A DNA stretch of 40,490 bases. It comes from Burkholderiales bacterium (lineage in GTDB: Bacteria; Pseudomonadota; Gammaproteobacteria; Burkholderiales; SG8-39). The position numbers were made by a program, and so were the translations under genes. The stretch lies in NCBI GenBank assembly GCA_964202115.1, contig CAXNIK010000002.1, positions 1 to 40,490 of the forward strand, read 5' to 3'. The notes under the pieces were generated by a model. It was not told the DNA's origin. It saw only the letters and a list, made by a program, of their open reading frames with translations, and searched no databases. Shown here piece by piece: positions 7,698 through 39,123 of the stretch. The first letter of the stretch is position 1. The number at the start of each line of letters is the position of its first letter.

Positions 7698-7738
7698 GCG
7701 GCAGGGATGCCCAGGGAGGCATCATCGCCGTCCCGGAG

Positions 7739-9361: not shown

Positions 9362-9650
9362 GGTTGAAGCAGTTTTCGTCCGCAATTGTCCCGCGCGGCC
9401 ACTGGGCGACTTTGACGGGGTAAGCTGTGAATTCTCTCACGATCGCCGACCATCGGACCGGAACCAGGCCCTGCCGGATCTTTCGAGGGCATGCACGGCG
9501 CGCGCATTGACGCGTGCGGCGGCGATAGCTGGGATAATGCAAGCAGTTGCCCATCTGACATCGTCACTGGCGGGTTTCCCGCTGTGTCCGGACTGGCAGC
9601 AATTCCGATTTTCATGATAAGGCGCGTTCTTGAGCCTTTTGGGAGCGTAT

Positions 9651-10634: not shown

Positions 10635-10655
10635 ATCGGGGTGAAGAAGCGGCCG

Positions 10656-23655: not shown

Positions 23656-23758
23656 CGTGCGCACCCCCCTGCCTGTCACGGTGCGCCCTTTCGGGCAGCA
23701 AGCGCTTTCCGGAGAAGCGCTTGTCGGAGCATGATCGTCCGGCGCGGAACAGATAGCT

Positions 23759-24778: not shown

Positions 24779-24851
24779 CGGGTAAGTCTGGCGAATGTCG
24801 CTACTGTGGCGGGGGCTTCTCGGGGCTTGGGATCAGGCATGGTGATGTTCA

Positions 24852-25892: not shown

Positions 25893-25905
25893 GGCGGTTG
25901 TTGGC

Positions 25906-26674
25906 TCAAGCCCGATCTTCCCGCGAAGACTTTTGCGCAAAAAACAGCAATCCCCAAAAGCCGCCGTGGTCGGTCTGCTCCAAATGGATACGCCCGAACC
26001 CCGCGGACTGGAAGGCCTGCAGCAGTCGGTTGGCGTCGTAGAGATTAATCTGCATCAGCGGATCGGAAGTGGATCTTCCCTGCAGTAAGTTGAGCAGGAA
26101 GTGCAGTGGGGGAATGCGATGTCGCAGAGAATTCAGCATCTTGCGCGGCAGGGAGCAATCCCTGTGGTAGGTGAAATGAAGGACGGCACCCCCCCGGAGC
26201 CGTTTTGTCCAACAATCTCCTCAAGATATCCATGCCCTTTGCAGCCGGGATGTGCTGGAAGACGATGAAGGAATGGATAAGGTCAAATGGTTTGCAGGTC
26301 TCCATCCATGGATGGTCTGAGCGCTCGAAGCTCACGTCGGCCGTGGGTTGTGCAACCCCGACATTCCTTTTGGCTTCGTCGAGCATAGACGGAGAGATGT
26401 CTACGGCAACGACTTCCCTGCAAATCTTTGCCAGTGGAATGACCAGGCGTCCGACGCCGCAGCCGAAGTCGACAGCGCGCAAGGGGCTGAATGTATCGTC
26501 CAGGGTATTCCTGATGGTGTGCATGACCTGATCGATGTGATCCTCGCTGGACTGGAAGAATTGTTTTCTCGCTTCCTTTGAAAGTTTGCCAGAGCGATAG
26601 TCCTCGCATGTCAGGACAGCGTAGTAGGGATCCTTGCGGCCCCATTCTTCCCACTGGGTGTCAGCTGAAAACAT
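25906..26674 (-). pseudogene. Class I SAM-dependent methyltransferase interrupted by a +1 frameshift in a G7 homopolymer
   Basis: The N-terminal part (ORF 26045..26695, SAM motif AVDFGCGVGRLVIPL, FIVFQHIP) degenerates after ...LLDKTAPGG at the C7/G7 run 26189-26195. The -1 frame continues AVLHFTYHRD...MQINLYDANRLLQAFQSAGFGRIHLEQTDHGGFWGLLFFAQK to a stop at 25906 and includes the 77-aa ORF 25906..26139. Removing one G gives a contiguous MTase of about 256 aa. ATG 26674 follows AAGGAG. Confidence 0.8.
26189..26195 (-). repeat. G7 (C7 on + strand) homopolymeric tract at the frameshift site
   Basis: Read directly: ...ggacggca-ccccccc-ggagc... at 26189-26195. Confidence 0.95.
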
Positions 26675-26809
26675 CGCACGATGCTCCTTGTCCAAACCCC
26701 GCTTTGGGTGCCTTCAAAACATGCCGGCAGACCGGCTCACATGCCGTGCGCCAACTTGTCCAAATCATGCTGACCTGCTGCAGCGGGCCGGGGACTAGGA
26801 ATTCCATCG

Positions 26810-27463
26810 TCATGGTTTGCCGAAGAGCCGGACTATAGTGTGGGGCTGGTCCAGCGCGAGGTCTTGCCCGGCATTCTCAGGAGCGCTGGCGCCTCCGTAC
26901 CCCCAGGTCGCTAGCCCGAACTGCAGCCGGTTGGCGCCTGCTGCCTGGCGATCCTCGTCGCGATCGCCGATATAGGCCGTATGCAGCTGATCCAGCTTGT
27001 GCCCGGACAGGATGCGAGCAATCAGATCGGCCTTCCGCGCCAGGGGTGGCTCGAAGAAATCCAGTGCGTAGATGCCCCGGAAATACGGCGTCCAGCCCAG
27101 GAATTCGATGATCAGCCGGGTCGGCAGCAGACGCTTGTTGGTGGCGATGTAAAGAGAGTGGGATAGGGCCAGCTCGCGCAGCATTTCGGGCACACCGGTA
27201 AACACCCGCGTGAGCTTGTAGCCCTCCGTGTCGTAATGCGCCTTGAAGGCATCCGCCAGGGGACGCAGGACGGCGCTGTCGTTGCAGCCCGCCAGCTGCG
27301 CCAGGGTGTCCATGAGAGGAGGGCCGATCACATCGGAAGCCAGCGGCCGCACAGGGCTTATCCCGCACCGGGCGAAGGCGCCCGCGAAACTGCCGAGGAT
27401 GCCCTCCGAGGAGTCGATCAGCGTGCCGTCCAGGTCGAATATCAGGTGCGAAATGTTCTGCAT
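26810..27463 (-). CDS. HAD-superfamily (subfamily IA, phosphoglycolate-phosphatase-like) hydrolase
   Basis: Motif I LIFDLDGTLIDS, motif II YIATNK, motif IV AYIGDRDEDRQAA. ATG at 27463. Confidence 0.85.
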   Translation of the reverse strand: MQNISHLIFDLDGTLIDSSEGILGSFAGAFARCGISPVRPLASDVIGPPLMDTLAQLAGCNDSAVLRPLADAFKAHYDTEGYKLTRVFTGVPEMLRELALSHSLYIATNKRLLPTRLIIEFLGWTPYFRGIYALDFFEPPLARKADLIARILSGHKLDQLHTAYIGDRDEDRQAAGANRLQFGLATWGYGGASAPENAGQDLALDQPHTIVRLFGKP

Positions 27464-27469
27464 GCCTGT

Positions 27470-28537
27470 CTATACCTGCCCGGAGGCTCTGGCGAAGTCC
27501 GCAGTCTTGCGAATCGATGATTCCAGCGATGTCCAGGCATCCAGACCCAGCTCCGTTCGTGCCCTGCCGATGTCGGGGACGTACCAGTTCCGGGAGAAAT
27601 TACCGACGCGGTTTCCGCTCTCGCCCAGCACCTGCACGGGCTTGCCGGGGCTGACGGTGTCGCGTACCAGATGGGCTAGGTCGAGGATGCTAACGGCTTG
27701 ATCGGAGCCGACGTTGTAGACACGTGCATGCCGCCCATTGACCAGCATAGTCAGCAGCCACACTATGAGGTCCGACATGTACAGAAACGAGCGCATGGGG
27801 GATCCGTCGCCCTTGACGACGATCGTTTCTGCGAACAGGGCGTCGCGGATGAAGTTGCCGATGGCGTAGTGGATGTCGAGCGGCAGATGCGGACCGACAA
27901 AAGAGAAGCAGCGGCCGACGGTGAACTCGAAGCCATGCTTCTGGGCGTAATAGGCGCAAAGAAATTCCGCGCTGCGCTTGGCGATGCCCAGCGCCGAATC
28001 CACCTGGGTCGTGTCCGGCGATCCGGGATACTCCTCGAGTATGCGCTGCATGCCAGACGGCGTCGGGCCGTAGGCCACGCCGGAACTGGTGAAGAAGACC
28101 TTCTTCGCCCCGCATCGGGCCGCGAATTGCAGCGTGCGCTCCGTTCCGTGCAGCAGGGTGTGGAATTTGCGCAGCTGGTCCTCCCCGTGGCTGGTTTCCC
28201 AGGCCGAGGTGGTGGCCATGTGCAATACGTGGGAAAACGACTCGTCTGGAAAGTCGAAACTCATCACGTCTCCACCGATCACGCGGACTGCACCGTCGCC
28301 GAAGAACTGCGGGAACTGCCGGCGGAAATTGTCCGGATTGCGGGTCAGCACCGTCGCCTTCAGGTCCGTTCCCAGGGTGCTGTTCGCGCACAGCATGGCC
28401 TCCAGCAGCCATCGCCCGAAAAGGCCGGTGCCGCCAGTGATGAAGAGGGACTGCCCGCGCAATGCTTTCCACAGAGGGGCGCTGCGGGCTGCGATGGCGG
28501 CGATATCCTCGCTCAGGAGATTCTGATCCGGTTTCAT
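27470..28537 (-). CDS. Extended SDR (NAD-dependent epimerase/dehydratase/reductase family), atypical active site
   Basis: LFITGGTGLFGRWLLEAML (GxxGxxG), FFTSSGVAYG. The position aligned with YxxxK reads LGIAK. ATG 28537 (MKPDQN) is 10 nt downstream of the Nudix stop; the longer ORF reaching 28669 overlaps the Nudix gene. Confidence 0.75.
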   Translation of the reverse strand: MKPDQNLLSEDIAAIAARSAPLWKALRGQSLFITGGTGLFGRWLLEAMLCANSTLGTDLKATVLTRNPDNFRRQFPQFFGDGAVRVIGGDVMSFDFPDESFSHVLHMATTSAWETSHGEDQLRKFHTLLHGTERTLQFAARCGAKKVFFTSSGVAYGPTPSGMQRILEEYPGSPDTTQVDSALGIAKRSAEFLCAYYAQKHGFEFTVGRCFSFVGPHLPLDIHYAIGNFIRDALFAETIVVKGDGSPMRSFLYMSDLIVWLLTMLVNGRHARVYNVGSDQAVSILDLAHLVRDTVSPGKPVQVLGESGNRVGNFSRNWYVPDIGRARTELGLDAWTSLESSIRKTADFARASGQV

Positions 28538-28547
28538 TACTTCTGGA

Positions 28548-29063
28548 TTACGGGCCGTCGATAAGGGAACGATAGGCCTCATGCTGCGGAATGATGTTGG
28601 CGGGGCAACCCTTATGCCACATCCATTGGTTGTTCCTGGGGTTGCCCGGGTCGAAACGGTGCGCTTCATCCGGCATGGAAGTCAGTTTGCAGCGATACAG
28701 CATCGAAATGAAGTGTCCGCGAATGTCCCGGTGTGGCGCCATGACTTCGCGGACGACGACCGGCGTGGCTTCGGCGGTTACGGACGCATCCAGTTCGCTT
28801 TCGGCAACTTTCTGAATGCGAGTGGCTGCATGTTCCTTGAACCGCAGGATGCCGCCTGGAATGTGCCAGCCGGGACCGTAAAATTCATCCGCTCGCCATG
28901 TGAGGAGGGTTTCGCCCGAGGCATTCTTGATCAGCAGGTCTACATTGACCATTGGCGTGAGCTGGCTGATGAAATAGAAGACGTCCTTGGGCAGCGACAG
29001 CCGGGGATTTTCTATCGCTTGCATGACTTCCGCCAACAGGGCCGGCAACGGCGCGCCGGTCAT
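28548..29063 (-). CDS. Nudix hydrolase, GDP-mannose mannosyl hydrolase (WcaH/NudD)-like
   Basis: 171 aa with VDLLIKNASGETLLTWR...GWHIPGGILRFKEHAATRIQKVAESELDA, a modified Nudix box as in GDPMH-type enzymes. ATGA overlap with the upstream gene. Confidence 0.7.
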   Translation of the reverse strand: MTGAPLPALLAEVMQAIENPRLSLPKDVFYFISQLTPMVNVDLLIKNASGETLLTWRADEFYGPGWHIPGGILRFKEHAATRIQKVAESELDASVTAEATPVVVREVMAPHRDIRGHFISMLYRCKLTSMPDEAHRFDPGNPRNNQWMWHKGCPANIIPQHEAYRSLIDGP

Positions 29064-30229
29064 GGCACGGTCTCCAGTCCGTGATCGCGCAAGATTGCCA
29101 CTTTCATCGAGGCGGGATAGCGAGCGCGAATCGTGCGGGCGACTTCGTCCGAATACGCTGCCGCCATGATGATGACGGCATCCACGGGGTCGCTGAGCAA
29201 TGTGTCGGGAGCGACGATGGGCACATGCGAAGCCGGGGTGAATTTGCCTTGCTTGAATAGTGCCGAATCGAGCACGTACTTGACCCTCTTGCCGATGTCG
29301 GCAAGGGCGATGACTGCCAGCGCCTGATGACCTGCGCCCCAGACGGCCACCCGGTTGGCGGGAAAACGGTCGATGAAGCCATTCAGGGCTGTAGCTATCC
29401 TAGTGCGGTAGTCCTCGAAGAAAGTCAGATCCGTCCGCGGCCGCTTGCGTACGATAGCCGAGAGTATGTAGTCATGCCACACGGGCTCGCATTCCAGCAC
29501 CTCGAAACCATTACGCTGCAGGGTGAAGGTCAGGGTGTCGCGAGTGAAATACAGCAGATGATCGGCGATGAACTCCGAGAACAGTCCCATTTTCAGGATC
29601 ATGTCGAAGTTGGGCACTTCGACCATGCCAATGCTTCGGTCAGCTAGATTCCTGCAAATTTCTTGCAGCGTAGCGTTGGGGTCGGGCCAGTGTTCAAGGA
29701 AGTTCAGGCAGACGAAGCCGTCAAAGGGCGCATCCGGCAGTAGTGGGGAATCGGCATCCATGAATGCCCGATGGACCGAGAGTTTCCGGTCGGCGCAGGC
29801 ATCCACCGATGTCTGCCCGAATTCGACGCCGACGGCATCGACAGGCAATTCACCCAACAACTCGAGATACTCTCCGCGCCCACAGCCGACTTCGAGGATT
29901 TTCTTGCCGGACAGGCTGTATTTATCCACCCATTGCTCAAACTGCACGCGGCGAAACTCCCGCATTTCCTCAGAAAAGGCTGAAGCCCTGATGACTTCGC
30001 GGTAATAGGGCACCGGTGGGTTGCTCAACTGCACGAGGCCACAGGCCGAACACTGGTACATCTCGAGATCCGCACCGGCATCAGTTTGAAGAGTTGCCAG
30101 AGTCGGGAATCCTTGGGCGGCAGCGGGCATATTTGAGTATCGTAGCGATGGCTCTTCGAACAATGCCCCGCCACACACCTTACAAGGTTGTCTGTTGCCC
30201 AGCTTTGCCTGACCCGATACCCAACCCAA
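29060..30229 (-). CDS. NDP-hexose C-methyltransferase-like protein (second TylC3-type architecture)
   Basis: N-terminal Zn-ribbon CKVCGG ... YQCSACGLVQLSNPP, SAM motif ILEVGCGRGEYLELL, and a C-terminal Rossmann-like domain (RVAVWGAGHQALAVIAL). The TTG start at 30229 is preceded by AAGGGGGA at about 8 nt, and there is no in-frame ATG upstream of the Zn-ribbon. Confidence 0.7.
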   Translation of the reverse strand: MGWVSGQAKLGNRQPCKVCGGALFEEPSLRYSNMPAAAQGFPTLATLQTDAGADLEMYQCSACGLVQLSNPPVPYYREVIRASAFSEEMREFRRVQFEQWVDKYSLSGKKILEVGCGRGEYLELLGELPVDAVGVEFGQTSVDACADRKLSVHRAFMDADSPLLPDAPFDGFVCLNFLEHWPDPNATLQEICRNLADRSIGMVEVPNFDMILKMGLFSEFIADHLLYFTRDTLTFTLQRNGFEVLECEPVWHDYILSAIVRKRPRTDLTFFEDYRTRIATALNGFIDRFPANRVAVWGAGHQALAVIALADIGKRVKYVLDSALFKQGKFTPASHVPIVAPDTLLSDPVDAVIIMAAAYSDEVARTIRARYPASMKVAILRDHGLETVP

Positions 30230-30309
30230 CTCATTTCCCCCTTGTATTTAATTTAACCTGCATCCACCTGATTCACTGCCTCCTCCCGGCGAGCCCAAGG
30301 ACAACTTAT

Positions 30310-31113
30310 CTATCCAAAGACTGTTATGCCGCCAGCCCACTGCTCAGATACCTGAGTGGTGTCCTTAGTGAGCATATTGGTCATGCACCAGAACTCCATA
30401 TGGGGGCCATATGCCTTGAGCAGTAGCACAAGGCGCGGATCTGCATGCACATAGGCCGACAAGCACACAATCGGCGTGTAGTGCTCATCGCTGATGAGCA
30501 GGTCGGGTGATCCGATCAGTGCTGCGCAAATATCCATGCCTCCGCTAAGACAGACATTGACGCCGTCAAGCTCGGGCAATGAAGTCATTTGCTCCCGTTG
30601 TGACCTTACATCGTACTCCTGCAGGGCTTGCGGAAAATACCAACCGACAACTGCAGCGCTCTGGCTTGCGTCTATAAACCGTTGGTAGCGGGATGCCTTG
30701 TCCAGCGTGATATGGCCTGGCAATTCGGAGTTGCTTTGCAGCACAGCCTTGAAATGGGCTTCCGGGTAGCGAGCGGTAAATGAACCCTGCAGATTTGACA
30801 GCAAAGTATTTTCAAGATTCGATCCAAGATCAACCTCGCTGCCAACACGCTGAAAGACGAAAGGGATGTGCACGCCTTTCAGCAGATTTGCATACGCTGG
30901 ACTGGCATTGAGTTTGTCAAGCAGGGCTTCGGCCCTGGATTTGAAATCAGCGGCCGTCAAACTGGCAGGGGAAACGTTGTACTGCTTGCAACGAACGAGA
31001 ATCTGCTGGTAGTCGAGTTTTGGCTGCGTCAATCTGTAGTAGTTGCTGGGCGTCTTCCCAAACAGACGCATGCCGTCGCCTGGAATACGGCGACCGATTT
31101 CATTGAAATACAT
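30310..31113 (-). CDS. Hypothetical protein, no recognisable family
   Basis: 267-aa ORF (ATG 31113 preceded by GGAG; GTG at 31116), 12-15 nt downstream of the radical SAM gene. No TM helices and no signature motif that I recognise. Clearly lower GC than its neighbours. Confidence 0.7.
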   Translation of the reverse strand: MYFNEIGRRIPGDGMRLFGKTPSNYYRLTQPKLDYQQILVRCKQYNVSPASLTAADFKSRAEALLDKLNASPAYANLLKGVHIPFVFQRVGSEVDLGSNLENTLLSNLQGSFTARYPEAHFKAVLQSNSELPGHITLDKASRYQRFIDASQSAAVVGWYFPQALQEYDVRSQREQMTSLPELDGVNVCLSGGMDICAALIGSPDLLISDEHYTPIVCLSAYVHADPRLVLLLKAYGPHMEFWCMTNMLTKDTTQVSEQWAGGITVFG

Positions 31114-31128
31114 CACCCTTTTCTCCGA

Positions 31129-32262
31129 TCAGCCATCAATAGCGGGGGCACGACCAAAACCGTGTTCATAGGGAACCGGTAGAAGCGGACTCACCTTCGA
31201 ATAATCGGCGACTGAACTATTATGGAAGTGGATGAAGTCTTTGTGTTCCCCAATGATGCATTCGTCGCGATATGGCCCCAGCCAGCTGTTCTTCATGCCA
31301 CGCTCAAGAATCACTGACAGCGGCTCCTTCGTGACATTCCCGATCGACAGATCCATATAGGGGCATGGAACAATCTCGCCATCGTGGTTGACCGTGTTGA
31401 TTCCCTTGACTGTGATGCAGCGCCCGGGTTGCCCATAGGAAGGGCTCATATGAGTGAATATGTTGTATTTATTTTCCAGGTACTTGAGGTGATCCACGTC
31501 CTTCTTGGTACACACCCAGGTATCTTGTTCCCGAGCCGTTCCAACTGGTTTGGCGAGCGTCACATACAAAGGTATCTCTTCAACCTTGCAATACTCGCAA
31601 AGGCTCAGGAATTCGTCAGAATATACGCGATCCTTGATGACGCAAGTCGAGATCAAGAGTTCAAGATTTGCATTCTTGGCTGCATCCAAAGCCCGCAATA
31701 CCCGCTTGTAGGAGCCCTTCTTGCCGCGAAACGAGTCATGCTCTTCTTCAATCATGCTATCAAGGGAGATTTGTGCCTTGTAACCGCCCAGACCCGCAAA
31801 CCACTTGGCCTTCTGGTCATCAAATGTCCAGCCATTGGTGTCCAGGATAATGAGGTGCTTCATCGGGTCAAGGGCCTCGATCAGCTTGTCCAGGCTCTTG
31901 TCCAGAAGCGCCTCGCCTCCGGTCAGCACAAAACGGAAGATTCCATATTCATCGGCTTGGCGTGATAACTCCCGGTACTCCTCCAAACCCATTTGCGGTC
32001 GGGGATCAATGGAACCGATGCGTTTTTTCAGATCCCGAGTCATGTAAGGTTCTTCGCAGCAATGTACACAATGAAAATTACACAAAGAACGGTTGATCTT
32101 CAGACGCAGAATCGGGCTGATTTGGCCGTCGAGCATGCCCTTGAAGTACTGCTGAATCTTTTCGTGAACGCGGGGACGCCTTTGACTCTGATCCTTGCGT
32201 TTGTTCTTCTCAGTCAAGGACAGGGCTTCCTGTTCTGCCAATATTTGAAGAGTGTTCGACAT
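31129..32262 (-). CDS. Radical SAM enzyme with C-terminal twitch/SPASM-like Cys region
   Basis: CNFHCVHC (CX3CX2C, residues 61-68), VLTGGEALL (GGE motif), and a C-terminal GRCITVKGINTVNHDGEIVPCPYMDLSIGNV. ATG 32262 is preceded by AGGAG at 7 nt. Confidence 0.85.
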   Translation of the reverse strand: MSNTLQILAEQEALSLTEKNKRKDQSQRRPRVHEKIQQYFKGMLDGQISPILRLKINRSLCNFHCVHCCEEPYMTRDLKKRIGSIDPRPQMGLEEYRELSRQADEYGIFRFVLTGGEALLDKSLDKLIEALDPMKHLIILDTNGWTFDDQKAKWFAGLGGYKAQISLDSMIEEEHDSFRGKKGSYKRVLRALDAAKNANLELLISTCVIKDRVYSDEFLSLCEYCKVEEIPLYVTLAKPVGTAREQDTWVCTKKDVDHLKYLENKYNIFTHMSPSYGQPGRCITVKGINTVNHDGEIVPCPYMDLSIGNVTKEPLSVILERGMKNSWLGPYRDECIIGEHKDFIHFHNSSVADYSKVSPLLPVPYEHGFGRAPAIDG

Positions 32263-32403
32263 TTCGGTCTCCTAGGTTTAAGTGTTAAATTGGCGGGACG
32301 CCACGATTAGACGCCCGCAGCAATTATGGCCAAATTCGTTGACAGCATCACGCCAATGCGATGGTCGCAATAATATCCTTACAATTATTTTCATTGTAGG
32401 CGG

Positions 32404-34224
32404 CTAATGTTTTCTAGTGCTTATTGAGGCATCTAGCAACGGGATGAGCATCTCCTTCTCCAAGATGCTCAGATCGAGCAACGGGGTCATGTCCTCCAGT
32501 GGCATGGATATCATGCTGCCATCGGGTTGCGGCATTGCGGCCGCCTTTGGCGAGAGGACTTCGTTTTCGACCAGACGCACATCTATGATGCAGGGCCGGG
32601 ACATTTCCATGACAGCATTAAGGTCTTTTGCCAAGCTTGCAGGTTTGTCGATCCGGCGGAACGCAAGCCCATAGGCTGTGGCAATGAGTTCCAAGTCGGG
32701 CAGTAACAGGCCGGCTTCGGGGCCGGTTCCTACGTAGCGCCCCTCAAAATAATTGCGCTGTGTGTTGCGGATCGAAGCATATCCACCGTTATTCATCACG
32801 ATCAGGCAAATGGGCAGGTTGAAGGCGCGAAGCGTGGCCAGTTCCTGGATATTGAGTTGCAGGCTGCCATCGCTTTCCACGGCGATCATCGGCTTTCGGT
32901 CATTTGCAAAACATGCGCCAATGGCTGCAGGCAATCCATATCCCATTGCGCCCAGACCCGATGTGAGAAACACTCTTTGCCCGGGCTTATTGCGAAATAC
33001 GGTATAGAACGCCTCCACCGCCAGACCGGAACTGCCTGTTGTGATGACCGCGCCTTCCGGAAAGGCATCCGACAAGGCGTCCATCAGCTGGTAATGCGAG
33101 ATCTTTCCCGCGGTTGGAAACGGCTGACCGTCGTTGACCGGATACCGCCGCTTCCAGTCCAGACAACGTGTCCGCCAAGGCTCCCAGTCAGCGTGGGACG
33201 GTGTCTCGTGCTGGTTGACTGCTTCAATGAACGCCATTGCGCTGCTGGCCACGGAAACGGCAATTTCCATGTCCAGTTTGTCGATTTCGTTCTGATCTAC
33301 GTCAACGATGATTTTTCTGGCTGCCCGTGCAAGGCCGCGCGGATTGTAGGCGGTGATGATGTTGTCCAAGCGGCTGCCGATGCTGATCAGGAGATCGCAA
33401 TTCTGCACGGCAAAATTCGGGGCCCGCAATGCAACCACGCCGGGACGGCCGATATTTAAATGATGGCTGTAGGGCAGAAGATCCAGCGCATTCCAGGTGG
33501 TGACGACAGGGATGCCGAGTTTTTCAACCCAAGCTCGAAATACTTCTGCAGCACCGGCTAGACGAATACCATGGCCGGCAAGCACCAAAGGGCGTTCCGC
33601 CTTGGCGATGAGCAACAGGATGTCCTTGATTGTGGCCACAGGAATTCCGTCTGCTTGCTGGGCAAGTTTCCGGGTCCACGGACGCAGGGCTGTCGGATCG
33701 ACTGGGGCGCCCTGAACATCCAACGGTACATCGATCCACACCGGGCCCGCACGGCCTTCGCGTGCCACATGGTAGGCCTCCTCCATGACTGCACGGATAT
33801 CTTCAGGCTGTTCCACCGTCACGGCGTATTTCGTAATACCCTGGACCATCCTGACAATATCGACTTCCTGTACGCCTTTCTGGCGCAGGGGGGCGTCACG
33901 CAGCATGTCTGCACGCTTGACCTGCCCTGTAAGGACCATGAGTGGCACGGATTCGATCCATGCTCCGGCAACTCCGGTGATGACGTTGGTGGCTCCCGGA
34001 CCGGTGGTCACCAATGCCACGCCGATATTCTCGTTGATTCGAGCATAGGCTTCGGCGGAAATGCCGACGGCTTGCTCATGAAGGCATGCCACGGTTTCCA
34101 GCCCGGGGCATTTGCCCACCGCATCGACCAGGTGCATATTGCCGCCGCCGGGCAGCAGGAAGACATGCCTGACCCCAATGCCGGCCACGAAATCAGCGAT
34201 AAAGTCTGCTACACGATAGTGCAT
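32404..34224 (-). CDS. Thiamine-diphosphate-dependent carboligase of the acetolactate-synthase/YerE type
   Basis: 606 aa. N-terminal Pyr domain: HVFLLPGGGNMHLVDA...HEQAVGISAEAYAR...VTTGPGATNVITGVAGAWIESVPLMVLTGQV. C-terminal ThDP motif: ESDGSLQLNIQELATLRAFNLPICLIVMNNGGYASI. It lies two genes downstream of rfbH, the position YerE takes behind the ddh genes in the yersiniose pathway. Confidence 0.8.
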   Translation of the reverse strand: MHYRVADFIADFVAGIGVRHVFLLPGGGNMHLVDAVGKCPGLETVACLHEQAVGISAEAYARINENIGVALVTTGPGATNVITGVAGAWIESVPLMVLTGQVKRADMLRDAPLRQKGVQEVDIVRMVQGITKYAVTVEQPEDIRAVMEEAYHVAREGRAGPVWIDVPLDVQGAPVDPTALRPWTRKLAQQADGIPVATIKDILLLIAKAERPLVLAGHGIRLAGAAEVFRAWVEKLGIPVVTTWNALDLLPYSHHLNIGRPGVVALRAPNFAVQNCDLLISIGSRLDNIITAYNPRGLARAARKIIVDVDQNEIDKLDMEIAVSVASSAMAFIEAVNQHETPSHADWEPWRTRCLDWKRRYPVNDGQPFPTAGKISHYQLMDALSDAFPEGAVITTGSSGLAVEAFYTVFRNKPGQRVFLTSGLGAMGYGLPAAIGACFANDRKPMIAVESDGSLQLNIQELATLRAFNLPICLIVMNNGGYASIRNTQRNYFEGRYVGTGPEAGLLLPDLELIATAYGLAFRRIDKPASLAKDLNAVMEMSRPCIIDVRLVENEVLSPKAAAMPQPDGSMISMPLEDMTPLLDLSILEKEMLIPLLDASISTRKH

Positions 34225-34233
34225 TGACGCGCC

Positions 34234-35739
34234 TTATCTCATCCAGTAGGTCAGCAGGGTTTTACGCTGCTTGTTAGCCATGATGGCCGGGTCTGTGTAG
34301 AACGAGTCATCCCTGAAATGCGTGGTCGATATTTCCTCAATGACCGCACCGGCCTGGCTCCTAAATGCATGTCTTGTGCCCGGTTCGATGGTAATGACAT
34401 CTCCCGGTTTGCATTGTCGTGGTTGACCGTCCAGCTCCAGGGTAATTTCCCCATACAGGACGTGGAATGTTTCCTCTTTCTGCTTGTGATACTGCTCCGG
34501 ATGCGATTGTCCCGGCAGGGTCACAAGCAGCTTCTTGCAGTAGTCGCGATTCACGACTGTGAGCATGGTGAGGCCTACGTCATCAAACCGGCCCAATCCG
34601 TAGTGGTGAGAGATGTCCAGTTCGGCACTGCCCGGAATCACAACCTGACTTTCTTTTAGAAAGGCCTTTACCCTCTTGACGATATCCCAGATTTTTTCGC
34701 GAGTATCGCTTTGCACCGAATTGGCCGGTGCGATGGCGCCGTCTGCGGCGATGGGTGCGGTGGCGGTGAATTGAGTGTATTTCGACCAGTCGTTGGCGGT
34801 GTATTGGTCGTCCTGGGGAGGGAACGCGAAATACACGTCTTCGCGCCGAACGATTTCGCCCTTTGAGATGGGGCGCCTGGCGAACACACCCCGACGCAGG
34901 GAGCGCAGGCTGGCTATTTCCTCAGGGTTCTCAGGACGCCGGACCTGCCCTTCACCGCAGACAGTCAGGGCGTATTCCGCCGCTGACAACCATGCATCCA
35001 CCTGTCCGGGAGAGGCCGAATAGGCATTGATCGGATATTTGTCTGTCGGCAGGCCGACGTGTTTCTCGAATATGGTCGCGCCCTTGGCAATGGCCATCTT
35101 GACCATGTCTGTGTTAGCCGGGTTCTCGTGGGTGGAAAAACCAATTCTTACACCCGGGTAACGCCGCTGCAGGAAGTCAAGTTGCGACAGGTGCATGCGC
35201 TCATCCGGGGTGGGGTATTCGCCGACGCAATGAAGAATGGCGAAATCCTTGGCGCGGTGCTGGAAGAAACTGATGACGCGATCAATGTCTTCCAGCTTTG
35301 CGCCGGCTGTCGAAGCGATGATCGGCCGGTCGGTCCCAACGATGCGCTCGAGCAGTGGCCAGTCGTTGAAGGAACAGCTGGCAACCTTGATGATGTCCAG
35401 TTTTTGCGATTCGATTGTGTCCACTGATGCCTCATCGAACGGGGTGGACATGGTGAGGAATCCCTGGGTACGAATTTCAGCTACAAGCCTGTCAAAATCC
35501 GCACGTGACAAGCGGGTTTCCGAAAAGCGCTTGATGTACTTGATGTCGTCCCGCCCCTGCATGGACGGGTGGATGAAAGTATCCAAGTCGCGGTATTGGA
35601 GCTTGAAAGCCATCGGAAAGCCGTGCTTTCTGCGGATTTCGCCAAAGGCACGAATCACGGCAAAGCCGTGTTCCATGTCCCCCATGTGGTTGTTGGCCAT
35701 TTCTAGAACAATGAGCGGGGTCGGAATTTTGGAAGTCAT
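34234..35739 (-). CDS. NeuB-fold (sialic-acid-synthase-like, PEP-condensing) enzyme fused to SAF and C-terminal cupin domains
   Basis: 501 aa from ATG 35739 (GAGG at 6 nt). NeuB block: PLIVLEMANNHMGD...IIKVASCSFNDWPLLERI...PIIASTAGA...ILHCVGEYPTP...IGFSTHE. SAF-like segment: RRGVFARRPISKGEIVRREDV. Cupin motifs: GQSHPEQYHKQKEETFHVLYGE and GDVITIEPGTRHAF. Confidence 0.8.
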   Translation of the reverse strand: MTSKIPTPLIVLEMANNHMGDMEHGFAVIRAFGEIRRKHGFPMAFKLQYRDLDTFIHPSMQGRDDIKYIKRFSETRLSRADFDRLVAEIRTQGFLTMSTPFDEASVDTIESQKLDIIKVASCSFNDWPLLERIVGTDRPIIASTAGAKLEDIDRVISFFQHRAKDFAILHCVGEYPTPDERMHLSQLDFLQRRYPGVRIGFSTHENPANTDMVKMAIAKGATIFEKHVGLPTDKYPINAYSASPGQVDAWLSAAEYALTVCGEGQVRRPENPEEIASLRSLRRGVFARRPISKGEIVRREDVYFAFPPQDDQYTANDWSKYTQFTATAPIAADGAIAPANSVQSDTREKIWDIVKRVKAFLKESQVVIPGSAELDISHHYGLGRFDDVGLTMLTVVNRDYCKKLLVTLPGQSHPEQYHKQKEETFHVLYGEITLELDGQPRQCKPGDVITIEPGTRHAFRSQAGAVIEEISTTHFRDDSFYTDPAIMANKQRKTLLTYWMR

Positions 35740-35834
35740 CGGATACCTCACTGCGAGAGTGGTTGAGGACGGTGATAAAGGTCGGTCATCTGCAAATTGC
35801 GTCGATTGGGAAACAGGCTTATGTGGGGTAGTGA

Positions 35835-37151
35835 TCAGAAATTTAGGCCAAGGAAGATCGAGACCTTCCTTGCGACAAAGTCAAGCATTGGTTCCGTAAG
35901 GCCGGGATACACACCGATCCAGAACGTGTTGTTCATGATGATGTCCGTGTTGGCGAGATGCCCTGAAATGCGGAAATTGCGGCCTATCATATAGGGCTGG
36001 CGCGCCAGATTACCGGCAAAAAGTAGCCTGGTGCCTACTTTTTCCTGATCCAGGTACGTGAGCAGGTCCACCCGGCTGACCGGCGCGTTGTCTTTTAACG
36101 TGATCGGGAAACCGAACCATGAAGGATCGGAATCAGCAGTGGCCTGCGGCAAGATCAGAAATTCTTCGCAGTCAGCCAGCCGGTTTTTCAAGAACGCGAA
36201 ATTATTCTTGCGGGCCTGCACAAAATGATCGAGTCGATCCATCTGAGCCAGGGCGCAGGCAGCCTGCACGTCACCGATCTTGAGGTTGTAGCCCAAGTGG
36301 CTGTACGTGTACTTGTGGTCATAACCTTCTGGCAGTTGGCCGAGTTTCCAGCAGAAGCGCTTGTTGCAGGTATTGTCCTTGCCCGGGGCGCAGTAGCAGT
36401 CCCGACCCCAGTCACGGAAGGACTCGGCAATGCGCTTTAGGTCGTCGTTGTTGGTGAAGACAGCTCCACCTTCACCCATTGTGATGTGATGAGCCGGATA
36501 AAAACTCAAGGTGCCGATGTCCCCGAAAGTGCCCACGCGTTGACCGTTGTAGGTGGACCCCAGGGCGTCGCAGCAATCCTCTACCAGCCAGAGATTGTAT
36601 TTTCTGGCGATACGGGTGACTTCAGCGAGGTTGTACGGATTTCCCAGAGTGTGCGCCAGCATGATGGCCTTCGTCTTGGGACCGATGGCCGCTTCGAGTT
36701 GCGTTACGTCGATATTGTAGGTGGGGATATGGACGTCAACGAATACTGGAATCGCGCCGAACTGCAGTATGGGATTCACCGTTGTGGGGAATCCGGCGGC
36801 TACGCCGATGACTTCATCTCCCGGCTTGATTGCCCGGTCGCCGAGCATGGGGCTGGTCAGCGCAGAGAAAGCGACCAGATTTGCCGATGACCCCGAATTG
36901 ACGGTAATGACGTGTTTGACGCCAAGATACTTGGCCAGGCGCTGCTCGAAAGCACTGTTGAAGCGGCCAGTTGTCAGCCAGCCGTCCAGAGAGGCTTCGA
37001 CCATGTTCCTGAGTTCACCGGCTCCGATTACCTTTCCCGACGGGGGGACCACTGTTGTGCCTGGTGTGAAGGGCAACGGAGAAAAAGCGAGCGCCGCGTA
37101 CTCATCGACGAGCTTGGCAATCTGTTGCCGGATCTGTACGGTTTTTTCCAT
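35835..37151 (-). CDS. rfbH: CDP-4-dehydro-6-deoxyglucose 3-dehydrase (E1; PMP- and [2Fe-2S]-dependent)
   Basis: 438 aa with [44 protein letters not shown] has His where aminotransferases have the Schiff-base Lys. The Cys pattern C194-X57-C252-X1-C254-X7-C262 matches the E1 iron-sulfur motif. Confidence 0.9.
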
Positions 37152-37158
37152 GAGAATC

Positions 37159-38232
37159 TTAGTGGATTGTGGCTTGGTATTGGGAGATCTGCTTCAGAGT
37201 GACAGTCTTCATGTCAGCTTTGTCGAGAAAAGCCTTGTGCCATGCCACGATGTTGTCGAGAGTTTCCTTCAATTGCCATTTTGGATTCCAACCCAGCCGT
37301 GCCTTCGCCTTGGAGCAATCAAGCTTGAGGTAGTGGGCTTCATGGGGGTGCGGATTTGGATCGAGTTTCCAAGAAGCCCCCGTGCTCCAGGATTTTGTCA
37401 GACATTCGACAATCCATTGCACCGGCTTGGCATCATCGTCACCTGCGCCGAAATTCCACGCTTCGGCGTAGGTAATGCCATTGTCGTAAAGCTTTTCAGC
37501 AAGCGTGAGGTACCCGCCCAGTGGCTCTAGTACATGCTGCCATGGGCGAATGGCTTGAGGGTTCCGGATATTGACTGGCTGGCCGGATTCAATGGCACGC
37601 AGAATGTCGGGTATCAGGCGATCTACCGCCCAATCACCGCCGCCAATGACGTTGCCGGCCCGCACTGTCGCTAGGGCAACACCATGCTCCTTGTGTCTGG
37701 CAGGGTTGAAAAAGGAATTGCGATAGGCAGCGGTCACGAGTTCCGCGCATCCCTTGCTGTTGCTATAAGGATCGTAACCCCCCATGGGATCATTTTCCCG
37801 GTAGCCCCACAGCCATTCCTTGTTTTCATAACACTTGTCGCTGGTGACATTGATTACGGCTCGCACGCTGCCGGTCTTGCGTACGCCTTCGAGCATATGC
37901 ACAGTGCCCATCACGTTTGTTGCGTAGGTTTCTACAGGAGCCGCATACGAATGGCGTACCAGCGGCTGAGCAGCCATGTGGATCACAATGTCCGGCTTTG
38001 CATCGTGCATGATACTTGCCAATTTTTCGGCATCGCGGATGTCTGCAATGACGGATCGCATACCTTTTCCTACATCCGCCACTGCAAATAGGCTGGGACT
38101 TGTGGGGGGCGGCAATGCATATCCGGTAAGGTCTGCTCCAAGCTGCTGCAACCAGAGGGACAGCCAACTGCCCTTGAAGCCGGTATGGCCTGTCATGAAG
38201 ACTCGTCTGTCACGCCAGAATGAGAGATTCAT
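37159..38232 (-). CDS. rfbG: CDP-glucose 4,6-dehydratase
   Basis: [44 protein letters not shown] 38232 forms an ATGA overlap with the rfbF stop; the TTG at 38247 is less likely. Confidence 0.92.
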
Positions 38233-39005
38233 CCCCAAACTTTCCAAGGCGCCTTGCCGCTGGCCCAGAGTTCTTCAAGCAACGTCTTGTCGCGCAGGGT
38301 GTCCATGGGTTGCCAGAACCCTTTGTGAGGAAAGGCTTTGAGCTGGCTTACCTCTGCCAGAGTTTCTAGGGGTTCGCGCTCCCAAGGTGTCTGGTCGCCT
38401 GCAATCAGGTCCATGACCTTAGGTGAAAGCACAAAAAAGCCCCCATTTATCAGGCCGCCGTCACCCCTGGGCTTTTCCTTAAACGAAGTAACGCGACTGT
38501 CCGGATGGATATCCAGGGCGCCGAAACGCCCGGGGGGGTAAGTGGCGGTAATTGTCGCCTGCAGGCCGTGTGCCAGGTGGAATCTGATCAGTTCTGTTAC
38601 GTTGACATCGCTCAAACCATCTCCGTAAGTGAAGCAGAATGCCCCTTCATCCCTCACATAGGAGGTGACTCGTTTGAGGCGCCCACCTGTATTGGTACTT
38701 TCGCCCGTATCTACCAGCGTGACACGCCAGGGTTCGGCATAGCGCTGATGGACTTCCATTTTGTTGTGCTGGACGTCGAAGGTGACATCCGACATGTGCA
38801 GGAAGTAGTTGGCAAAGTATTCCTTGACAACATACCCCTTGTATCCGCAACAGATGATGAAATCGTTGATGCCATGGTGGGAGTAGATCTTCATGATGTG
38901 CCATAGGATCGGCTTGCCACCGATCTCAACCATGGGCTTGGGTTTGAGATTGGTTTCTTCGGAGATGCGGGTTCCAAGACCGCCAGCGAGAATTACAGCC
39001 TTCAT
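38229..39005 (-). CDS. rfbF: Glucose-1-phosphate cytidylyltransferase
   Basis: 258 aa with [86 protein letters not shown]. Confidence 0.95.
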
Positions 39006-39123
39006 GATTGGATTTTCTTGATGCTGGAAGATTTCGTTTCAAAGAGGATGGTTGGGCGCACCGACTCAACATTCGATGTTGCTGATTCAACGTGCATTCC
39101 AGAGGTGAATGCGGCCGCATTCA

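What the first reader, a model, noticed from the sequence alone, without database searches (positions are those of the whole stretch)
30310..32262. Low-GC islet: radical SAM/twitch enzyme paired with a 267-aa protein of no recognisable family
Seen: the two genes are separated by only 12-15 nt and both have good SD sequences (AGGAG; GGAG). They are flanked by the two longest AT-rich spacers inside the operon (30230-30309 and 32263-32403). Hand counts of individual 60-nt lines inside the pair give about 42-43% GC. The same counts give about 50-63% in the adjacent genes and about 63-67% in the centre of the locus. The rSAM protein has CX3CX2C, a GGE motif and a C-terminal Cys-containing twitch/SPASM-like segment. 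The partner protein has no TM helices, no nucleotide-binding motif and no motif I can place. Inference: this looks like a two-gene cassette acquired separately and inserted between the ThDP enzyme and the C-methyltransferase, with the unknown protein as a dedicated partner of the rSAM enzyme (substrate-binding, reductase-like or scaffold role). It is the least explainable part of the window.
Basis: partly seen in the sequence, partly recalled or inferred. Interest (0 to 1): 0.65.

Follow-up and report, generated by a model that had tools for sequence, protein, structure and literature searches.

The report
Radical SAM enzyme with new-fold partner
Two adjacent genes in a surface-polysaccharide locus encode a very highly conserved radical SAM enzyme and a roughly 267-residue protein with no known family or fold; the two always occur together (in some bacteria fused into one protein) and look like an uncharacterised optional tailoring step in making a branched deoxysugar.

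Summary
The gene pair is real: a radical SAM (rSAM) gene at 31129-32262(-) and a 267/268-aa gene, here called X267, at 30310-31116(-). They are 12-15 nt apart and both have Shine-Dalgarno (SD) sites. The pair is 51.2% GC, not 42-43%. It is the lowest 2-kb stretch of the window, but its GC3 (0.60) matches the neighbouring sugar genes.

The "dedicated partner" idea is strongly supported:
- The rSAM lies directly upstream of X267 in every locus with enough sequence (about 35 loci found from three different starting genes).
- Three independent natural rSAM-X267 fusion proteins exist.
- The two proteins' divergences correlate (r = 0.75-0.89).

"Separately acquired and inserted here" is not supported. 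The pair always sits in one conserved module: CDP-glucose genes, RfbH, NeuB-cupin, ThDP enzyme, C-methyltransferase, NUDIX and SDR. The closest relatives share the window's gene order. The pair is, however, optional: most NeuB-cupin/ThDP modules lack it.

Best reading: a two-component twitch-type rSAM that tailors a CDP-linked acyl-branched deoxysugar. The reaction it catalyses is unknown.

The parts
31129..32262 (-). Twitch-type radical SAM enzyme, 377 aa. It has CX3CX2C at residues 61-68, GGE at 115-117, and auxiliary-cluster Cys at 282, 300 and 335.
   Evidence: Pfam Radical_SAM scores 57.4 bits (cut-off 29.5) and SPASM 23.1 bits (cut-off 21.5). NCBIfam gives only sub-threshold MoaA/AhbD/NirJ-like hits. 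Six Cys are invariant across all three clades. A profile search of PDB finds MoaA, then SkfB, then BlsE. The best 120 homologue clusters are at least 84% identical.
30310..31116 (-). X267: a 268-aa protein from the GTG start (267 aa from the ATG at 31113). It belongs to an uncharacterised family with no detected fold relative and is the obligate partner of the rSAM.
32269..32273 (-). Shine-Dalgarno AGGAG, 6 nt upstream of the rSAM ATG.
   Evidence: Read directly from the sequence. It is conserved in L103, L105 and L106.
31123..31126 (-). Shine-Dalgarno GGAG, 6 nt before the GTG at 31116 and 9 nt before the ATG at 31113.
   Evidence: Read directly from the sequence. Homologues begin M-x-[YF]-F, which fits the GTG start.
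32263..32403 (-). 141-nt spacer between the ThDP gene and the rSAM gene, 46% GC. It is the longest spacer of the operon.
   Evidence: It is largely conserved in the closest relatives L105 and L106 and shorter in L103. No promoter, terminator or Rfam match was found.
30230..30309 (-). 80-nt spacer between X267 and the C-methyltransferase gene, 49% GC.
   Evidence: No promoter- or terminator-like site was found.
38229..39005 (-). Glucose-1-phosphate cytidylyltransferase (RfbF); module context.
   Evidence: NCBIfam TIGR02623 scores 468 bits (cut-off 300).
37159..38247 (-). CDP-glucose 4,6-dehydratase (RfbG); module context.
   Evidence: NCBIfam TIGR02622 scores 517 bits (cut-off 278).
35835..37151 (-). 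RfbH/E1-type CDP-4-keto-6-deoxyglucose 3-dehydrase; module context.
   Evidence: NCBIfam NF011936 scores 749 bits (cut-off 423).
34234..35751 (-). NeuB-SAF-cupin fusion protein (505 aa). Inferred to be a PEP-dependent synthase that makes the alpha-keto acid donor.
   Evidence: Pfam NeuB, SAF and Cupin_2. It is always directly upstream of the ThDP gene in related loci.
32404..34224 (-). ThDP-dependent carboligase of the acetolactate-synthase type, with a YerE/ErwE-like role in this context.
   Evidence: Pfam TPP_enzyme_N, _M and _C. The role is inferred from PMC9306805.
29060..30229 (-). TylC3-type sugar C-methyltransferase. It commonly occurs with the pair but also occurs in modules that lack it.
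   Evidence: Pfam Methyltransf_13, _23 and _14. Co-occurrence is shown.
28548..29063 (-). NUDIX-fold protein resembling GDP-mannose mannosyl hydrolase. It co-occurs with the pair more tightly than any other module gene.
   Evidence: Pfam NUDIX scores 23.2 bits. NCBIfam NF011963 is sub-threshold. Co-occurrence is shown.
27470..28537 (-). SDR epimerase/reductase, in a YerF-like position. The likely start is Met45 of the 399-aa ORF, which gives 355 aa.
   Evidence: Pfam Epimerase. Homologues in L105 and L106 are 355 aa. The longer ORF would overlap the NUDIX gene by 122 nt.
26810..27463 (-). HAD phosphatase; module context.
   Evidence: Pfam HAD_2. It is conserved in many related loci.

Best explanation
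The two genes encode one functional unit: a two-component radical SAM enzyme.

The 377-aa subunit is a twitch-type rSAM. It has a SAM-cleaving [4Fe-4S] site (C61/C65/C68, GGE) and one auxiliary cluster held by only three conserved Cys (C282/C300/C335). The 267/268-aa subunit (X267) is a globular alpha/beta protein of an undescribed family with no detected fold relative. It is translated just downstream of the rSAM, and in some bacteria it is fused to the rSAM C-terminus.

The unit is an optional tailoring step in a conserved pathway. That pathway makes CDP-4-keto-3,6-dideoxyglucose (RfbF, RfbG, RfbH). It then adds an acyl branch at C4 with a ThDP carboligase, using an alpha-keto acid made by the adjacent NeuB-cupin synthase, with HAD as a phosphatase. 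The product is reduced by the SDR and goes into a surface polysaccharide. The pair usually comes with a NUDIX protein and a C-methyltransferase.

Inferred mechanism:
- The reduced cluster cleaves SAM.
- The 5'-deoxyadenosyl radical abstracts a hydrogen from the CDP-bound sugar or its side chain.
- The open iron of the three-Cys auxiliary cluster helps bind or oxidise the substrate.
- X267 either forms the substrate-binding cap of the active site or processes the immediate radical product.

Shown here: the coupling of the two proteins, their module context, and the cluster motifs. Inferred: the substrate and the reaction type (dehydrogenation, epimerisation, dehydration or C-C cyclisation).
For: Adjacency from three independent starting genes:
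- X267-anchored genome loci: the rSAM is directly upstream in all 15 loci with upstream sequence.
- NeuB-anchored metagenome loci: 9 of 9 type-A rSAMs with downstream sequence, and 2 of 2 type-B, are followed by X267.
- rSAM-anchored look-ups: 2 of 2 are followed by a Pfam-less 268/282-aa gene.

Fusion proteins (Rosetta-stone evidence):
- P0290 (632 aa) is Radical_SAM + SPASM + the X267 domain.
- P0272 and P0303 are further independent fusions with different linkers.
- P0290 sits in the same module, in the order NeuB-cupin, ThDP, C-MT, NUDIX, fusion, SDR, HAD.

Deep conservation of the link: an X267 homologue only 29% identical still follows a 52%-identical rSAM next to NeuB-cupin and ThDP.

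Co-divergence: r(rSAM, X267) is 0.89 overall (partial r 0.86) and 0.75 within type A. Correlations with ThDP or C-MT are 0.2-0.5.

rSAM features. The closest solved relatives are MoaA (a nucleotide substrate and a three-Cys auxiliary cluster), SkfB and BlsE (a cytosine-nucleoside sugar).

Pathway context: RfbF, RfbG and RfbH score above NCBIfam cut-offs. The published scheme for acyl-branched sugars supplies the pathway logic (PMC9306805).

Selection: the rSAM has a median identity of 83% across loci, against 41-69% for the other module genes.
Against: - No biochemical data exist for either protein, and no name beyond 'hypothetical protein' was found.
- A sister rSAM clade (39-41% identity) sits in the same module without any X267 (L042, L100). 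So the fold is not universally required by this rSAM lineage.
- Distant X267 homologues with an N-terminal extension occur alone, far from any rSAM. So the fold also has an rSAM-independent role.
- AlphaFold on the natural fusion did not give a confident inter-domain arrangement (pTM 0.54). A physical interface is therefore not shown.
- Adjacency and fusion fit 'consecutive enzymes' just as well as 'subunits of one enzyme'.
- The substrate could be the free ulosonic acid or an aldose rather than the CDP-sugar.
Confidence: 0.6

Rival explanations
1. The pair is a foreign two-gene cassette that was acquired separately and recently, then inserted between the ThDP gene and the C-methyltransferase gene of an existing operon.
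For: - It is the lowest-GC 2-kb stretch of the window (51.2% against 58.4%; 2% tail) and is flanked by AT-richer spacers.
- The pair's position in the module varies among loci.
- The pair's phylogeny is partly decoupled from ThDP and C-MT.
- Most NeuB-cupin/ThDP modules lack the pair.
Against: - GC3 of the pair (0.60) equals that of RfbG, RfbF and the methyltransferase at 26045-26695, and is close to ThDP. The deficit lies in codon positions 1 and 2 of a hyper-conserved protein.
- In 22 other loci the pair's GC3 tracks its neighbours (mean difference +0.003 and -0.022). The rSAM's total GC is compressed to 0.34-0.60 whatever the host GC.
- The closest relatives have the same ThDP-rSAM-X267-C-MT-NUDIX-SDR-HAD order, or the same ThDP-rSAM-X267 junction.
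- There are no flanking repeats, no transposase and no promoter or terminator in the spacers.
Confidence: 0.12
2. X267 is an independent enzyme that catalyses the step after (or before) the rSAM, for example an isomerase, hydrolase or lyase acting on the radical product. It is not a structural subunit. The two are linked only as consecutive pathway steps.
For: - About 54 residues are invariant across 80 type-A homologues, many of them polar (H120, K122, Q126, E166, D168, R173, D225, R227, K233, H238, E240, E257).
- Solo homologues exist outside rSAM contexts.
- A sister rSAM clade works without X267.
- The fusion model shows no confident interface.
Against: - Across the whole superfamily the conserved positions are mostly Gly, Pro, Phe and Leu, with only about four semi-conserved polar residues.
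- The type-A Cys and His are lost in the fused and type-B forms.
- Co-divergence at r = 0.75-0.89 and invariant adjacency in the rSAM-then-X267 order with 12-30 nt gaps are stronger than for any other pair of pathway genes.
Confidence: 0.25
3. X267 is a dedicated redox or metal partner, either an electron donor to the rSAM cluster or a reductase in the manner of AprD3.
For: In type A, three Cys (188, 217, 243) and three His (120, 223, 238) are invariant or nearly so. Precedents exist for rSAM-plus-reductase pairs (established knowledge: AprD4/AprD3).
Against: - These Cys and His are replaced in the fused and type-B proteins (C188 to L, C217 to W, H238 to Y or N, C243 to N).
- There is no CxxC, no GxGxxG and no Rossmann or ferredoxin/flavodoxin family hit.
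- No fold match to any redox protein was found.
Confidence: 0.05
4. X267 is itself the protein substrate of the rSAM: it is modified post-translationally to become an active enzyme or cofactor carrier.
For: Only the strict pairing, the fusion and the extreme conservation of the rSAM. Nothing direct supports it.
Against: - No residue that could be the modification target is conserved across types A and B.
- The rSAM resembles small-molecule and nucleotide-acting enzymes (MoaA, BlsE) at least as much as it resembles peptide maturases.
- The pathway context is entirely nucleotide-sugar chemistry.
Confidence: 0.04

Closest known systems
MoaA (GTP 3',8-cyclase), the best-scoring characterised relative of the rSAM subunit
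   Same: It has a radical SAM core with an N-terminal CX3CX2C and a C-terminal auxiliary [4Fe-4S] cluster held by three Cys. Its substrate is a nucleotide. It gives the best NCBIfam hit (78 bits) and the best PDB profile hit (78.5 bits).
   Different: The score is far below the MoaA cut-off (78 against 284 bits). The spacing of the auxiliary Cys differs (C-X17-C-X34-C with a twitch CX12GX4C signature). There are no molybdopterin genes nearby. The context is CDP-sugar synthesis, and there is an obligate extra protein.
Sugar-tailoring twitch/radical SAM enzymes: BtrN, DesII, AprD4 with AprD3, and BlsE
   Same: These are rSAM enzymes that abstract a hydrogen from a sugar or nucleoside sugar to oxidise, deaminate, dehydrate or decarboxylate it. 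AprD4 works with a dedicated second protein (established knowledge). BlsE is detected by the family profile (43 bits).
   Different: There is no family-level match to any of them. The partner here has no NAD(P)-binding fold, unlike AprD3. The pathway is for a CDP-linked cell-surface sugar, not an aminoglycoside or nucleoside antibiotic.
YerE/ErwE/MMAR_2332/MyGE pathways for acyl-branched 3,6-dideoxyhexoses (yersiniose, erwiniose, caryophyllose, 'gastriose')
   Same: They use CDP-glucose genes plus RfbH to give CDP-4-keto-3,6-dideoxyglucose. A ThDP carboligase adds an acyl group from an alpha-keto acid, followed by an NAD(P)H reductase. Some clusters also have a SAM methyltransferase (PMC9306805).
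   Different: The alpha-keto acid is apparently made by a NeuB-SAF-cupin protein, not a pyruvate aldolase. The paper read (PMC9306805; its main text apart from the tail of the reference list) mentions no radical SAM enzyme or X267-like protein in those pathways.
PqqE/PqqD and other rSAM-plus-accessory-domain pairs (RRE-type partners)
   Same: A SPASM/twitch rSAM depends on a small separately encoded partner that is fused to the rSAM in some organisms and presents the substrate (established knowledge). The genetics here follow the same logic: adjacency, occasional fusion and co-divergence.
   Different: X267 is three times larger. It has no PqqD/RRE match. The pathway has no precursor peptide. 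The likely ligand is a sugar nucleotide.

Membership tests
Radical SAM superfamily (PF04055) | CX3CX2C cluster motif near the N-terminus | tested here: met
   C61-X3-C65-X2-C68 is invariant in 25 sequences from three clades.
Radical SAM superfamily (PF04055) | Profile score above the Pfam gathering threshold, plus a GGE SAM-binding motif | tested here: met
   57.4 bits against a cut-off of 29.5. G115-G116-E117 is invariant.
SPASM/twitch subgroup | CX9-15GX4C signature after the core | tested here: met
   C282-X12-G-X4-C300. Pfam SPASM scores 23.1 bits against a cut-off of 21.5.
SPASM/twitch subgroup | Full seven-Cys SPASM motif for two auxiliary clusters | tested here: not met
   Only three C-terminal Cys (282, 300, 335) are conserved across clades. 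This fits a single-cluster twitch domain.
MoaA (GTP 3',8-cyclase) | Score above the equivalog cut-off | tested here: not met
   TIGR02666 scores 78.2 bits against a cut-off of 284. TIGR02668 scores 66.9 against 325.
MoaA (GTP 3',8-cyclase) | Genomic association with the moaB/C/D/E genes | tested here: not met
   All neighbours are polysaccharide and nucleotide-sugar genes.
AprD4/AprD3-type rSAM dehydratase plus reductase pair | The partner is an NAD(P)H-dependent reductase with a Rossmann fold | tested here: not met
   X267 has no GxGxxG, no SDR/AKR family hit and no fold match.
PqqD/RRE-type rSAM partner | The partner matches the PqqD/RRE winged-helix family, and a precursor peptide gene is present | tested here: not met
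   No Pfam hit at E <= 0.01. The 12-15 nt gap between the two genes leaves no room for a small ORF. Small ORFs in the rest of the module were not examined.
YerE-type acyl-branched sugar pathway (context of the pair) | Genes for CDP-4-keto-3,6-dideoxyglucose (cytidylyltransferase, 4,6-dehydratase, RfbH/E1) | tested here: met
   All three score above NCBIfam cut-offs. An E3-like reductase is absent from the window but present in L103/L104.
YerE-type acyl-branched sugar pathway (context of the pair) | ThDP carboligase that accepts the keto-sugar, plus a side-chain reductase | tested here: inconclusive
   A three-domain ThDP enzyme and an SDR are present and conserved.
YerE-type acyl-branched sugar pathway (context of the pair) | A pyruvate aldolase supplies the alpha-keto acid donor | tested here: not met
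   No aldolase is present. A NeuB-SAF-cupin protein occupies the position next to the ThDP gene in all loci.

The most novel reading that the evidence does not exclude
X267 founds a new protein fold and family that is the obligate second subunit (or C-terminal domain) of a new class of radical SAM sugar-modifying enzyme. Together the two proteins carry out chemistry not yet described for nucleotide sugars, for example a radical C-C cyclisation or rearrangement of a long acyl branch that yields a carbocyclic or bicyclic higher-carbon sugar. This would occur in the surface glycans of abundant freshwater and marine Proteobacteria (Methylophilaceae, Burkholderiaceae, Nitrosomonadaceae, Halieaceae, Dechloromonas, Legionella).
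Probability: 0.15. Interest if true: 0.85.

Novelty: new variant of a known kind. Interest (0 to 1): 0.62.

Why it matters
Radical SAM tailoring of nucleotide sugars is known mainly from antibiotic pathways. Here an uncharacterised rSAM under unusually strong purifying selection (about 85% identity across proteobacterial classes) is tied to a protein family with no annotation and no detectable structural relative. Both sit inside a widespread gene module for acyl-branched deoxysugars of cell-surface polysaccharides.

The module itself extends the published 'unifying scheme' for acyl-branched sugars, because a NeuB-cupin synthase replaces the aldolase.

The pair gives a well-defined, testable target. 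It has two proteins, a natural fusion, a predictable substrate class, and natural 'minus' variants of the pathway for comparison. From it one could discover a new sugar structure, a new rSAM reaction and the function of a new fold. Such surface sugars also shape phage and grazer recognition in abundant aquatic bacteria.

Tried and rejected
- AlphaFold on the natural 632-aa fusion, using an unpaired alignment, gave pLDDT 77 and pTM 0.54. The X267 domain was confident, but the rSAM cluster loop, twitch region and linker were poor. No statement about an interface is possible. Model coordinates could not be read, so pockets and residue clustering could not be examined.
- X267 as an E3 (AscD) substitute for RfbH is rejected. 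Modules with RfbH but without the pair are common, and one locus has both an E3-like gene and the pair.
- X267 as an Fe-S or metal protein is rejected, because the type-A Cys and His are not kept in type B or the fusions.
- X267 as a P-loop protein is rejected, because the Walker-A-like string is not conserved.
- A glycyl-radical-type substrate idea (the C-terminal GG) was dropped, because the motif is not conserved across the superfamily.
- Searches for cassette signatures found nothing: no flanking repeats, no promoters or terminators and no Rfam element.
- Four of the five literature searches found no paper on an rSAM in this kind of pathway. The fifth yielded PMC9306805, which gave only the pathway framework.
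- Source names for homologues are only 'hypothetical protein' or the generic 'MoaA/NifB/PqqE/SkfB family radical SAM enzyme'.
Full report
**What is in the sequence**

On the minus strand, 31129-32262 encodes a 377-aa protein. The ORF at 30310-31116 encodes a 268-aa protein if translation starts at the GTG, or 267 aa from the ATG one codon later. The rSAM stop codon and the next start are 12 nt (GTG) or 15 nt (ATG) apart. AGGAG lies 6 nt before the first ATG. GGAG lies 6 nt before the GTG. Homologues begin M-x-[YF]-F, which favours the GTG start.

The first protein carries CX3CX2C (61-68), GGE (115-117) and the twitch/SPASM signature C282-X12-G-X4-C300, followed by C335. It passes the Pfam thresholds for Radical_SAM (57.4 bits) and, narrowly, SPASM (23.1 bits). 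In NCBIfam it reaches only sub-threshold scores for MoaA, AhbD, NirJ and peptide maturases.

The second protein (X267 in this report) has no hit in Pfam, NCBIfam or PHROGs. It has no TM segment and no GxGxxG motif. Its one Walker-A-like string is not conserved in homologues.

**Composition**

The pair is 51.2% GC, and its 60-nt lines average 51.4%. It is still the lowest 2-kb stretch of the window (mean 58.4%, sd 3.2; 2% tail).

Third-codon-position GC tells a different story. The rSAM and X267 both have GC3 of 0.60. That is the same as RfbG (0.595), the small methyltransferase at 26045-26695 (0.61) and RfbF (0.64), and close to ThDP (0.64) and NeuB-cupin (0.67). The real step in GC3 is between 29060-40221 (0.57-0.68) and 19837-28669 (0.74-0.81).

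The extra deficit in the rSAM lies in codon positions 1 and 2, that is, in amino-acid composition. In 22 related loci whose GC3 ranges from 0.17 to 0.87, the pair's GC3 tracks its neighbours (mean differences +0.003 and -0.022). The rSAM's total GC stays within 0.34-0.60. That is the behaviour expected of a protein whose sequence is almost frozen.

The 141-nt spacer upstream of the rSAM is the longest in the operon. The 80-nt spacer downstream of X267 is not among the longest. Neither spacer has promoter-like, terminator-like, repeat or Rfam features. The upstream spacer is largely conserved in the closest relatives.

**The neighbourhood**

The window is a large surface-polysaccharide locus. 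It contains Wzz/GNVR, an initiating sugar transferase, many GT2/GT4/GT9 glycosyltransferases, Wzx- and Wzy-like proteins and methyltransferases.

Around the pair lies a sugar-synthesis module:
- glucose-1-phosphate cytidylyltransferase, CDP-glucose 4,6-dehydratase and RfbH/E1, all above NCBIfam cut-offs;
- a NeuB-SAF-cupin protein;
- a three-domain ThDP enzyme;
- a TylC3-type C-methyltransferase;
- a NUDIX protein;
- an SDR;
- a HAD phosphatase.

This matches the published logic for acyl-branched 3,6-dideoxyhexoses. In that scheme a YerE-like ThDP enzyme adds the decarboxylated alpha-keto acid to C4 of CDP-4-keto-3,6-dideoxyglucose, and a reductase follows (PMC9306805). The difference here is that a NeuB-type, PEP-dependent synthase occupies the place of the aldolase, with a HAD phosphatase alongside. 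That reading of NeuB and HAD is an inference from context.

**The pair in other genomes**

X267 has 393 homologue clusters in the word-indexed search. In the exhaustive profile search it has 512 clusters at 50% identity.

Sixteen genome loci were recovered. They come from Nitrosomonadaceae, Dechloromonas, Legionella, Methylophilaceae, Burkholderiaceae, Halieaceae and other Beta- and Gammaproteobacteria. In all 15 that have upstream sequence, the rSAM lies directly upstream of X267 on the same strand. All loci with enough flank carry the same module nearby.

The pair's position within the module varies:
- after the SDR in most loci;
- between NUDIX and SDR in L001 and L004;
- about 5-6 kb away in three Methylophilaceae loci;
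- upstream of the module, next to an IS element, in L017;
- between ThDP and C-MT in the window.

The window's order is not unique. Two contigs with 90%-identical X267 have exactly ThDP-rSAM-X267-C-MT-NUDIX-SDR-HAD. An 83%-identical relative has NeuB-ThDP-rSAM-X267 followed by the remaining genes inverted.

Two further checks are not biased by anchoring on X267. Among 80 NeuB-cupin-anchored metagenome loci, every type-A rSAM with downstream sequence (9 of 9) and both type-B rSAMs are followed by X267. Two look-ups anchored on rSAM proteins, one of them a marine sequence seen on more than 20 contigs, again show a Pfam-less 268/282-aa gene immediately downstream.

**Fusions and co-divergence**

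The exhaustive search recovered P0290, a 632-aa protein. Residues 1-370 are Radical_SAM + SPASM, and residues 380-630 are the X267 domain. It also recovered two further, independently diverged proteins (P0272 and P0303, truncated at contig ends) that join the SPASM region to X267 through different linkers. P0290 sits in the same module, in the order NeuB-cupin, ThDP, C-MT, NUDIX, fusion, B12-rSAM, SDR, HAD.

A homologue only 29% identical to the window's X267 still follows a 52%-identical 377-aa rSAM and precedes NeuB-cupin and ThDP.

Pairwise distances of the rSAM and X267 correlate at r = 0.89 over 21 loci. The partial r is 0.86 after controlling for ThDP and C-MT. Within the close 'type A' clade alone the correlation is 0.75. 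Either protein correlates with ThDP or C-MT at only 0.2-0.5, whereas ThDP and C-MT correlate with each other at about 0.8.

So the two genes are inherited, and probably exchanged between clusters, as one unit.

**The pair is optional**

Of the 15 NeuB-anchored loci with at least 6 kb upstream and 8 kb downstream of the NeuB match:
- one carries the pair;
- one carries a 41%-identical rSAM without X267;
- thirteen have no related rSAM at all.

Where the pair is present, the NUDIX gene and usually the C-methyltransferase are present too. One exception is L020, where no NUDIX gene was seen. A 'type C' rSAM (39-41% identity; L042, L100) occurs in the module with no X267 detectable even by HMM.

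A distant X267 branch with a 50-90-residue N-terminal extension occurs alone in unrelated contexts.

**What X267 looks like**

AlphaFold with 80 homologues gives a confident single-domain model (pLDDT 94.2, pTM 0.93). It has an N-terminal helical segment, an alternating beta-alpha core and a C-terminal antiparallel sheet.

Within type A, 54 positions are invariant in 80 sequences, many of them polar. Across the whole superfamily the conserved positions are mostly Gly, Pro, Phe and Leu, with only D95, R8, R173 and D194 semi-conserved. The type-A Cys and His are replaced in the fused and type-B forms. This argues against a metal, cluster or redox role. It is compatible with a binding or capping domain, or with an enzyme whose catalytic residues differ between clades.

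**The rSAM**

Six Cys are invariant across types A, B and C. Three form the SAM cluster and three (282, 300, 335) lie in the twitch region. That points to one auxiliary cluster with an open iron site, as in MoaA. This is an inference from the motif.

A profile of the three clades finds MoaA (78 bits), then SkfB (59) and then the cytosylglucuronate decarboxylase BlsE (43) among solved structures.

The family is strikingly conserved. The best 120 clusters are at least 84% identical to the window protein. Median identity across loci is 83%, against 41-69% for the other module genes.

**Interpretation**

The evidence shows that the rSAM and X267 form one functional unit dedicated to this sugar module. 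It does not show what reaction the unit performs.

I favour a two-component radical tailoring enzyme acting on the CDP-bound branched sugar or its side chain. X267 would be either the substrate-binding or capping subunit or the enzyme for the immediately following step. The data cannot separate those two roles. The fusion model gave no confident interface (pTM 0.54).

An E3-replacement role is excluded, because RfbH-containing modules without the pair are common and one locus has both an E3-like gene and the pair.

'Separately acquired islet inserted here' is not supported. In evolutionary terms, though, the pair is a movable, optional add-on to a core module.

**Novelty**

No annotation, curated family, solved structure or paper was found for either protein. 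The kind of system, an rSAM tailoring enzyme with an accessory protein in a nucleotide-sugar pathway, is known. This particular rSAM clade, its partner family and the NeuB-cupin variant of the acyl-branched sugar pathway appear undescribed.

Noticed in passing
window 27470-40221 and loci L001-L109: The module around the pair (RfbF, RfbG, RfbH, a NeuB-SAF-cupin fusion, a ThDP enzyme, an SDR and a HAD) is common in aquatic metagenomes. It looks like a variant of the published acyl-branched sugar scheme in which a PEP-dependent NeuB-type synthase replaces the pyruvate aldolase. The cupin domain is always fused to NeuB.
   Followed up: partly
window 31129-32262; The rSAM is about 85% identical across Beta- and Gammaproteobacteria, while its operon neighbours are 41-69% identical. 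Its total GC is compressed to 0.34-0.60 whatever the host GC. This is unusually strong purifying selection for a polysaccharide-locus gene.
   Followed up: partly
L042:15327-16349 and L100:6312-7325: A sister rSAM clade (39-41% identity, with the same six conserved Cys) sits in the same module but has no X267, not even by HMM. It lacks the short insertion after the CX3CX2C motif that the X267-linked clades have.
   Followed up: partly
L019:587-1642, L022:2318-3277 (P0332, P0313, P0287, P0297, P0390): A distant X267 branch (about 310-350 aa, with a 50-90-residue N-terminal extension) occurs alone, with no rSAM nearby. One copy lies near a bAvd gene (a diversity-generating retroelement accessory gene). 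Another lies among housekeeping genes (iPGM, RNase Y).
   Followed up: partly
L017:12534-14309, L018:8337-9998, L020:3214-4959: A B12-binding radical SAM gene (a likely C-methylase) lies next to or near the pair in three loci. L020 additionally has a third rSAM (C2185-like N-terminus) and a PhyH dioxygenase. Some variants of the module therefore carry several radical enzymes.
   Followed up: no
window 10656-14955: The window holds a second, complete TylC3-type C-methyltransferase (13690-14955; Methyltransf_13, _23 and _14). It lies beside a GT4, a second GDP-mannose 4,6-dehydratase-like gene (10656-11648) and a GDP-sugar epimerase/reductase-like gene (11632-12543). This suggests a second, GDP-linked C-methylated 6-deoxysugar in the same polysaccharide.
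   Followed up: no
window 19837-28669 versus 29060-40221: GC3 changes stepwise within the minus-strand gene array. It is 0.74-0.81 in the glycosyltransferase/flippase part and the SDR/HAD genes, and 0.57-0.68 in the sugar-synthesis part. The methyltransferase at 26045-26695 is an exception at 0.61. The locus looks like a compositional mosaic on a larger scale than the pair.
   Followed up: partly
window 28548-29063: Read by eye, the NUDIX protein's Nudix box looks degenerate (about GX5EX7-KVAESE instead of REUXEE). It may not be a standard pyrophosphohydrolase. It co-occurs with the rSAM/X267 pair more tightly than any other module gene.
   Followed up: no
L103:1220-1951: An E3 (AscD)-like reductase gene (FAD_binding_6/NAD_binding_1, 243 aa) sits next to RfbH in L103 and L104. 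No such gene is in the window, nor in L017, L018 or L020. The reductase partner of RfbH in the window's organism is not evident.
   Followed up: no
L010:9980-10789: In the Dechloromonas sp. SSB2 chromosome, X267 is split into two ORFs (9980-10531 and 10535-10789). This could be a frameshift, a stop codon or an assembly error. It is the only interrupted copy seen.
   Followed up: no
window 27470-28669: The longest SDR ORF overlaps the NUDIX gene by 122 nt. Homologues are 355 aa, so the true start is probably the Met at 28537.
   Followed up: yes
window 4436-6196(+), 7313-8452(+), 7739-9385(-), 8355-9122(+): Several long ORFs in the plus-strand part of the locus have no Pfam match, and some of them overlap each other on opposite strands. 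Which ones are real genes was not resolved.
   Followed up: no
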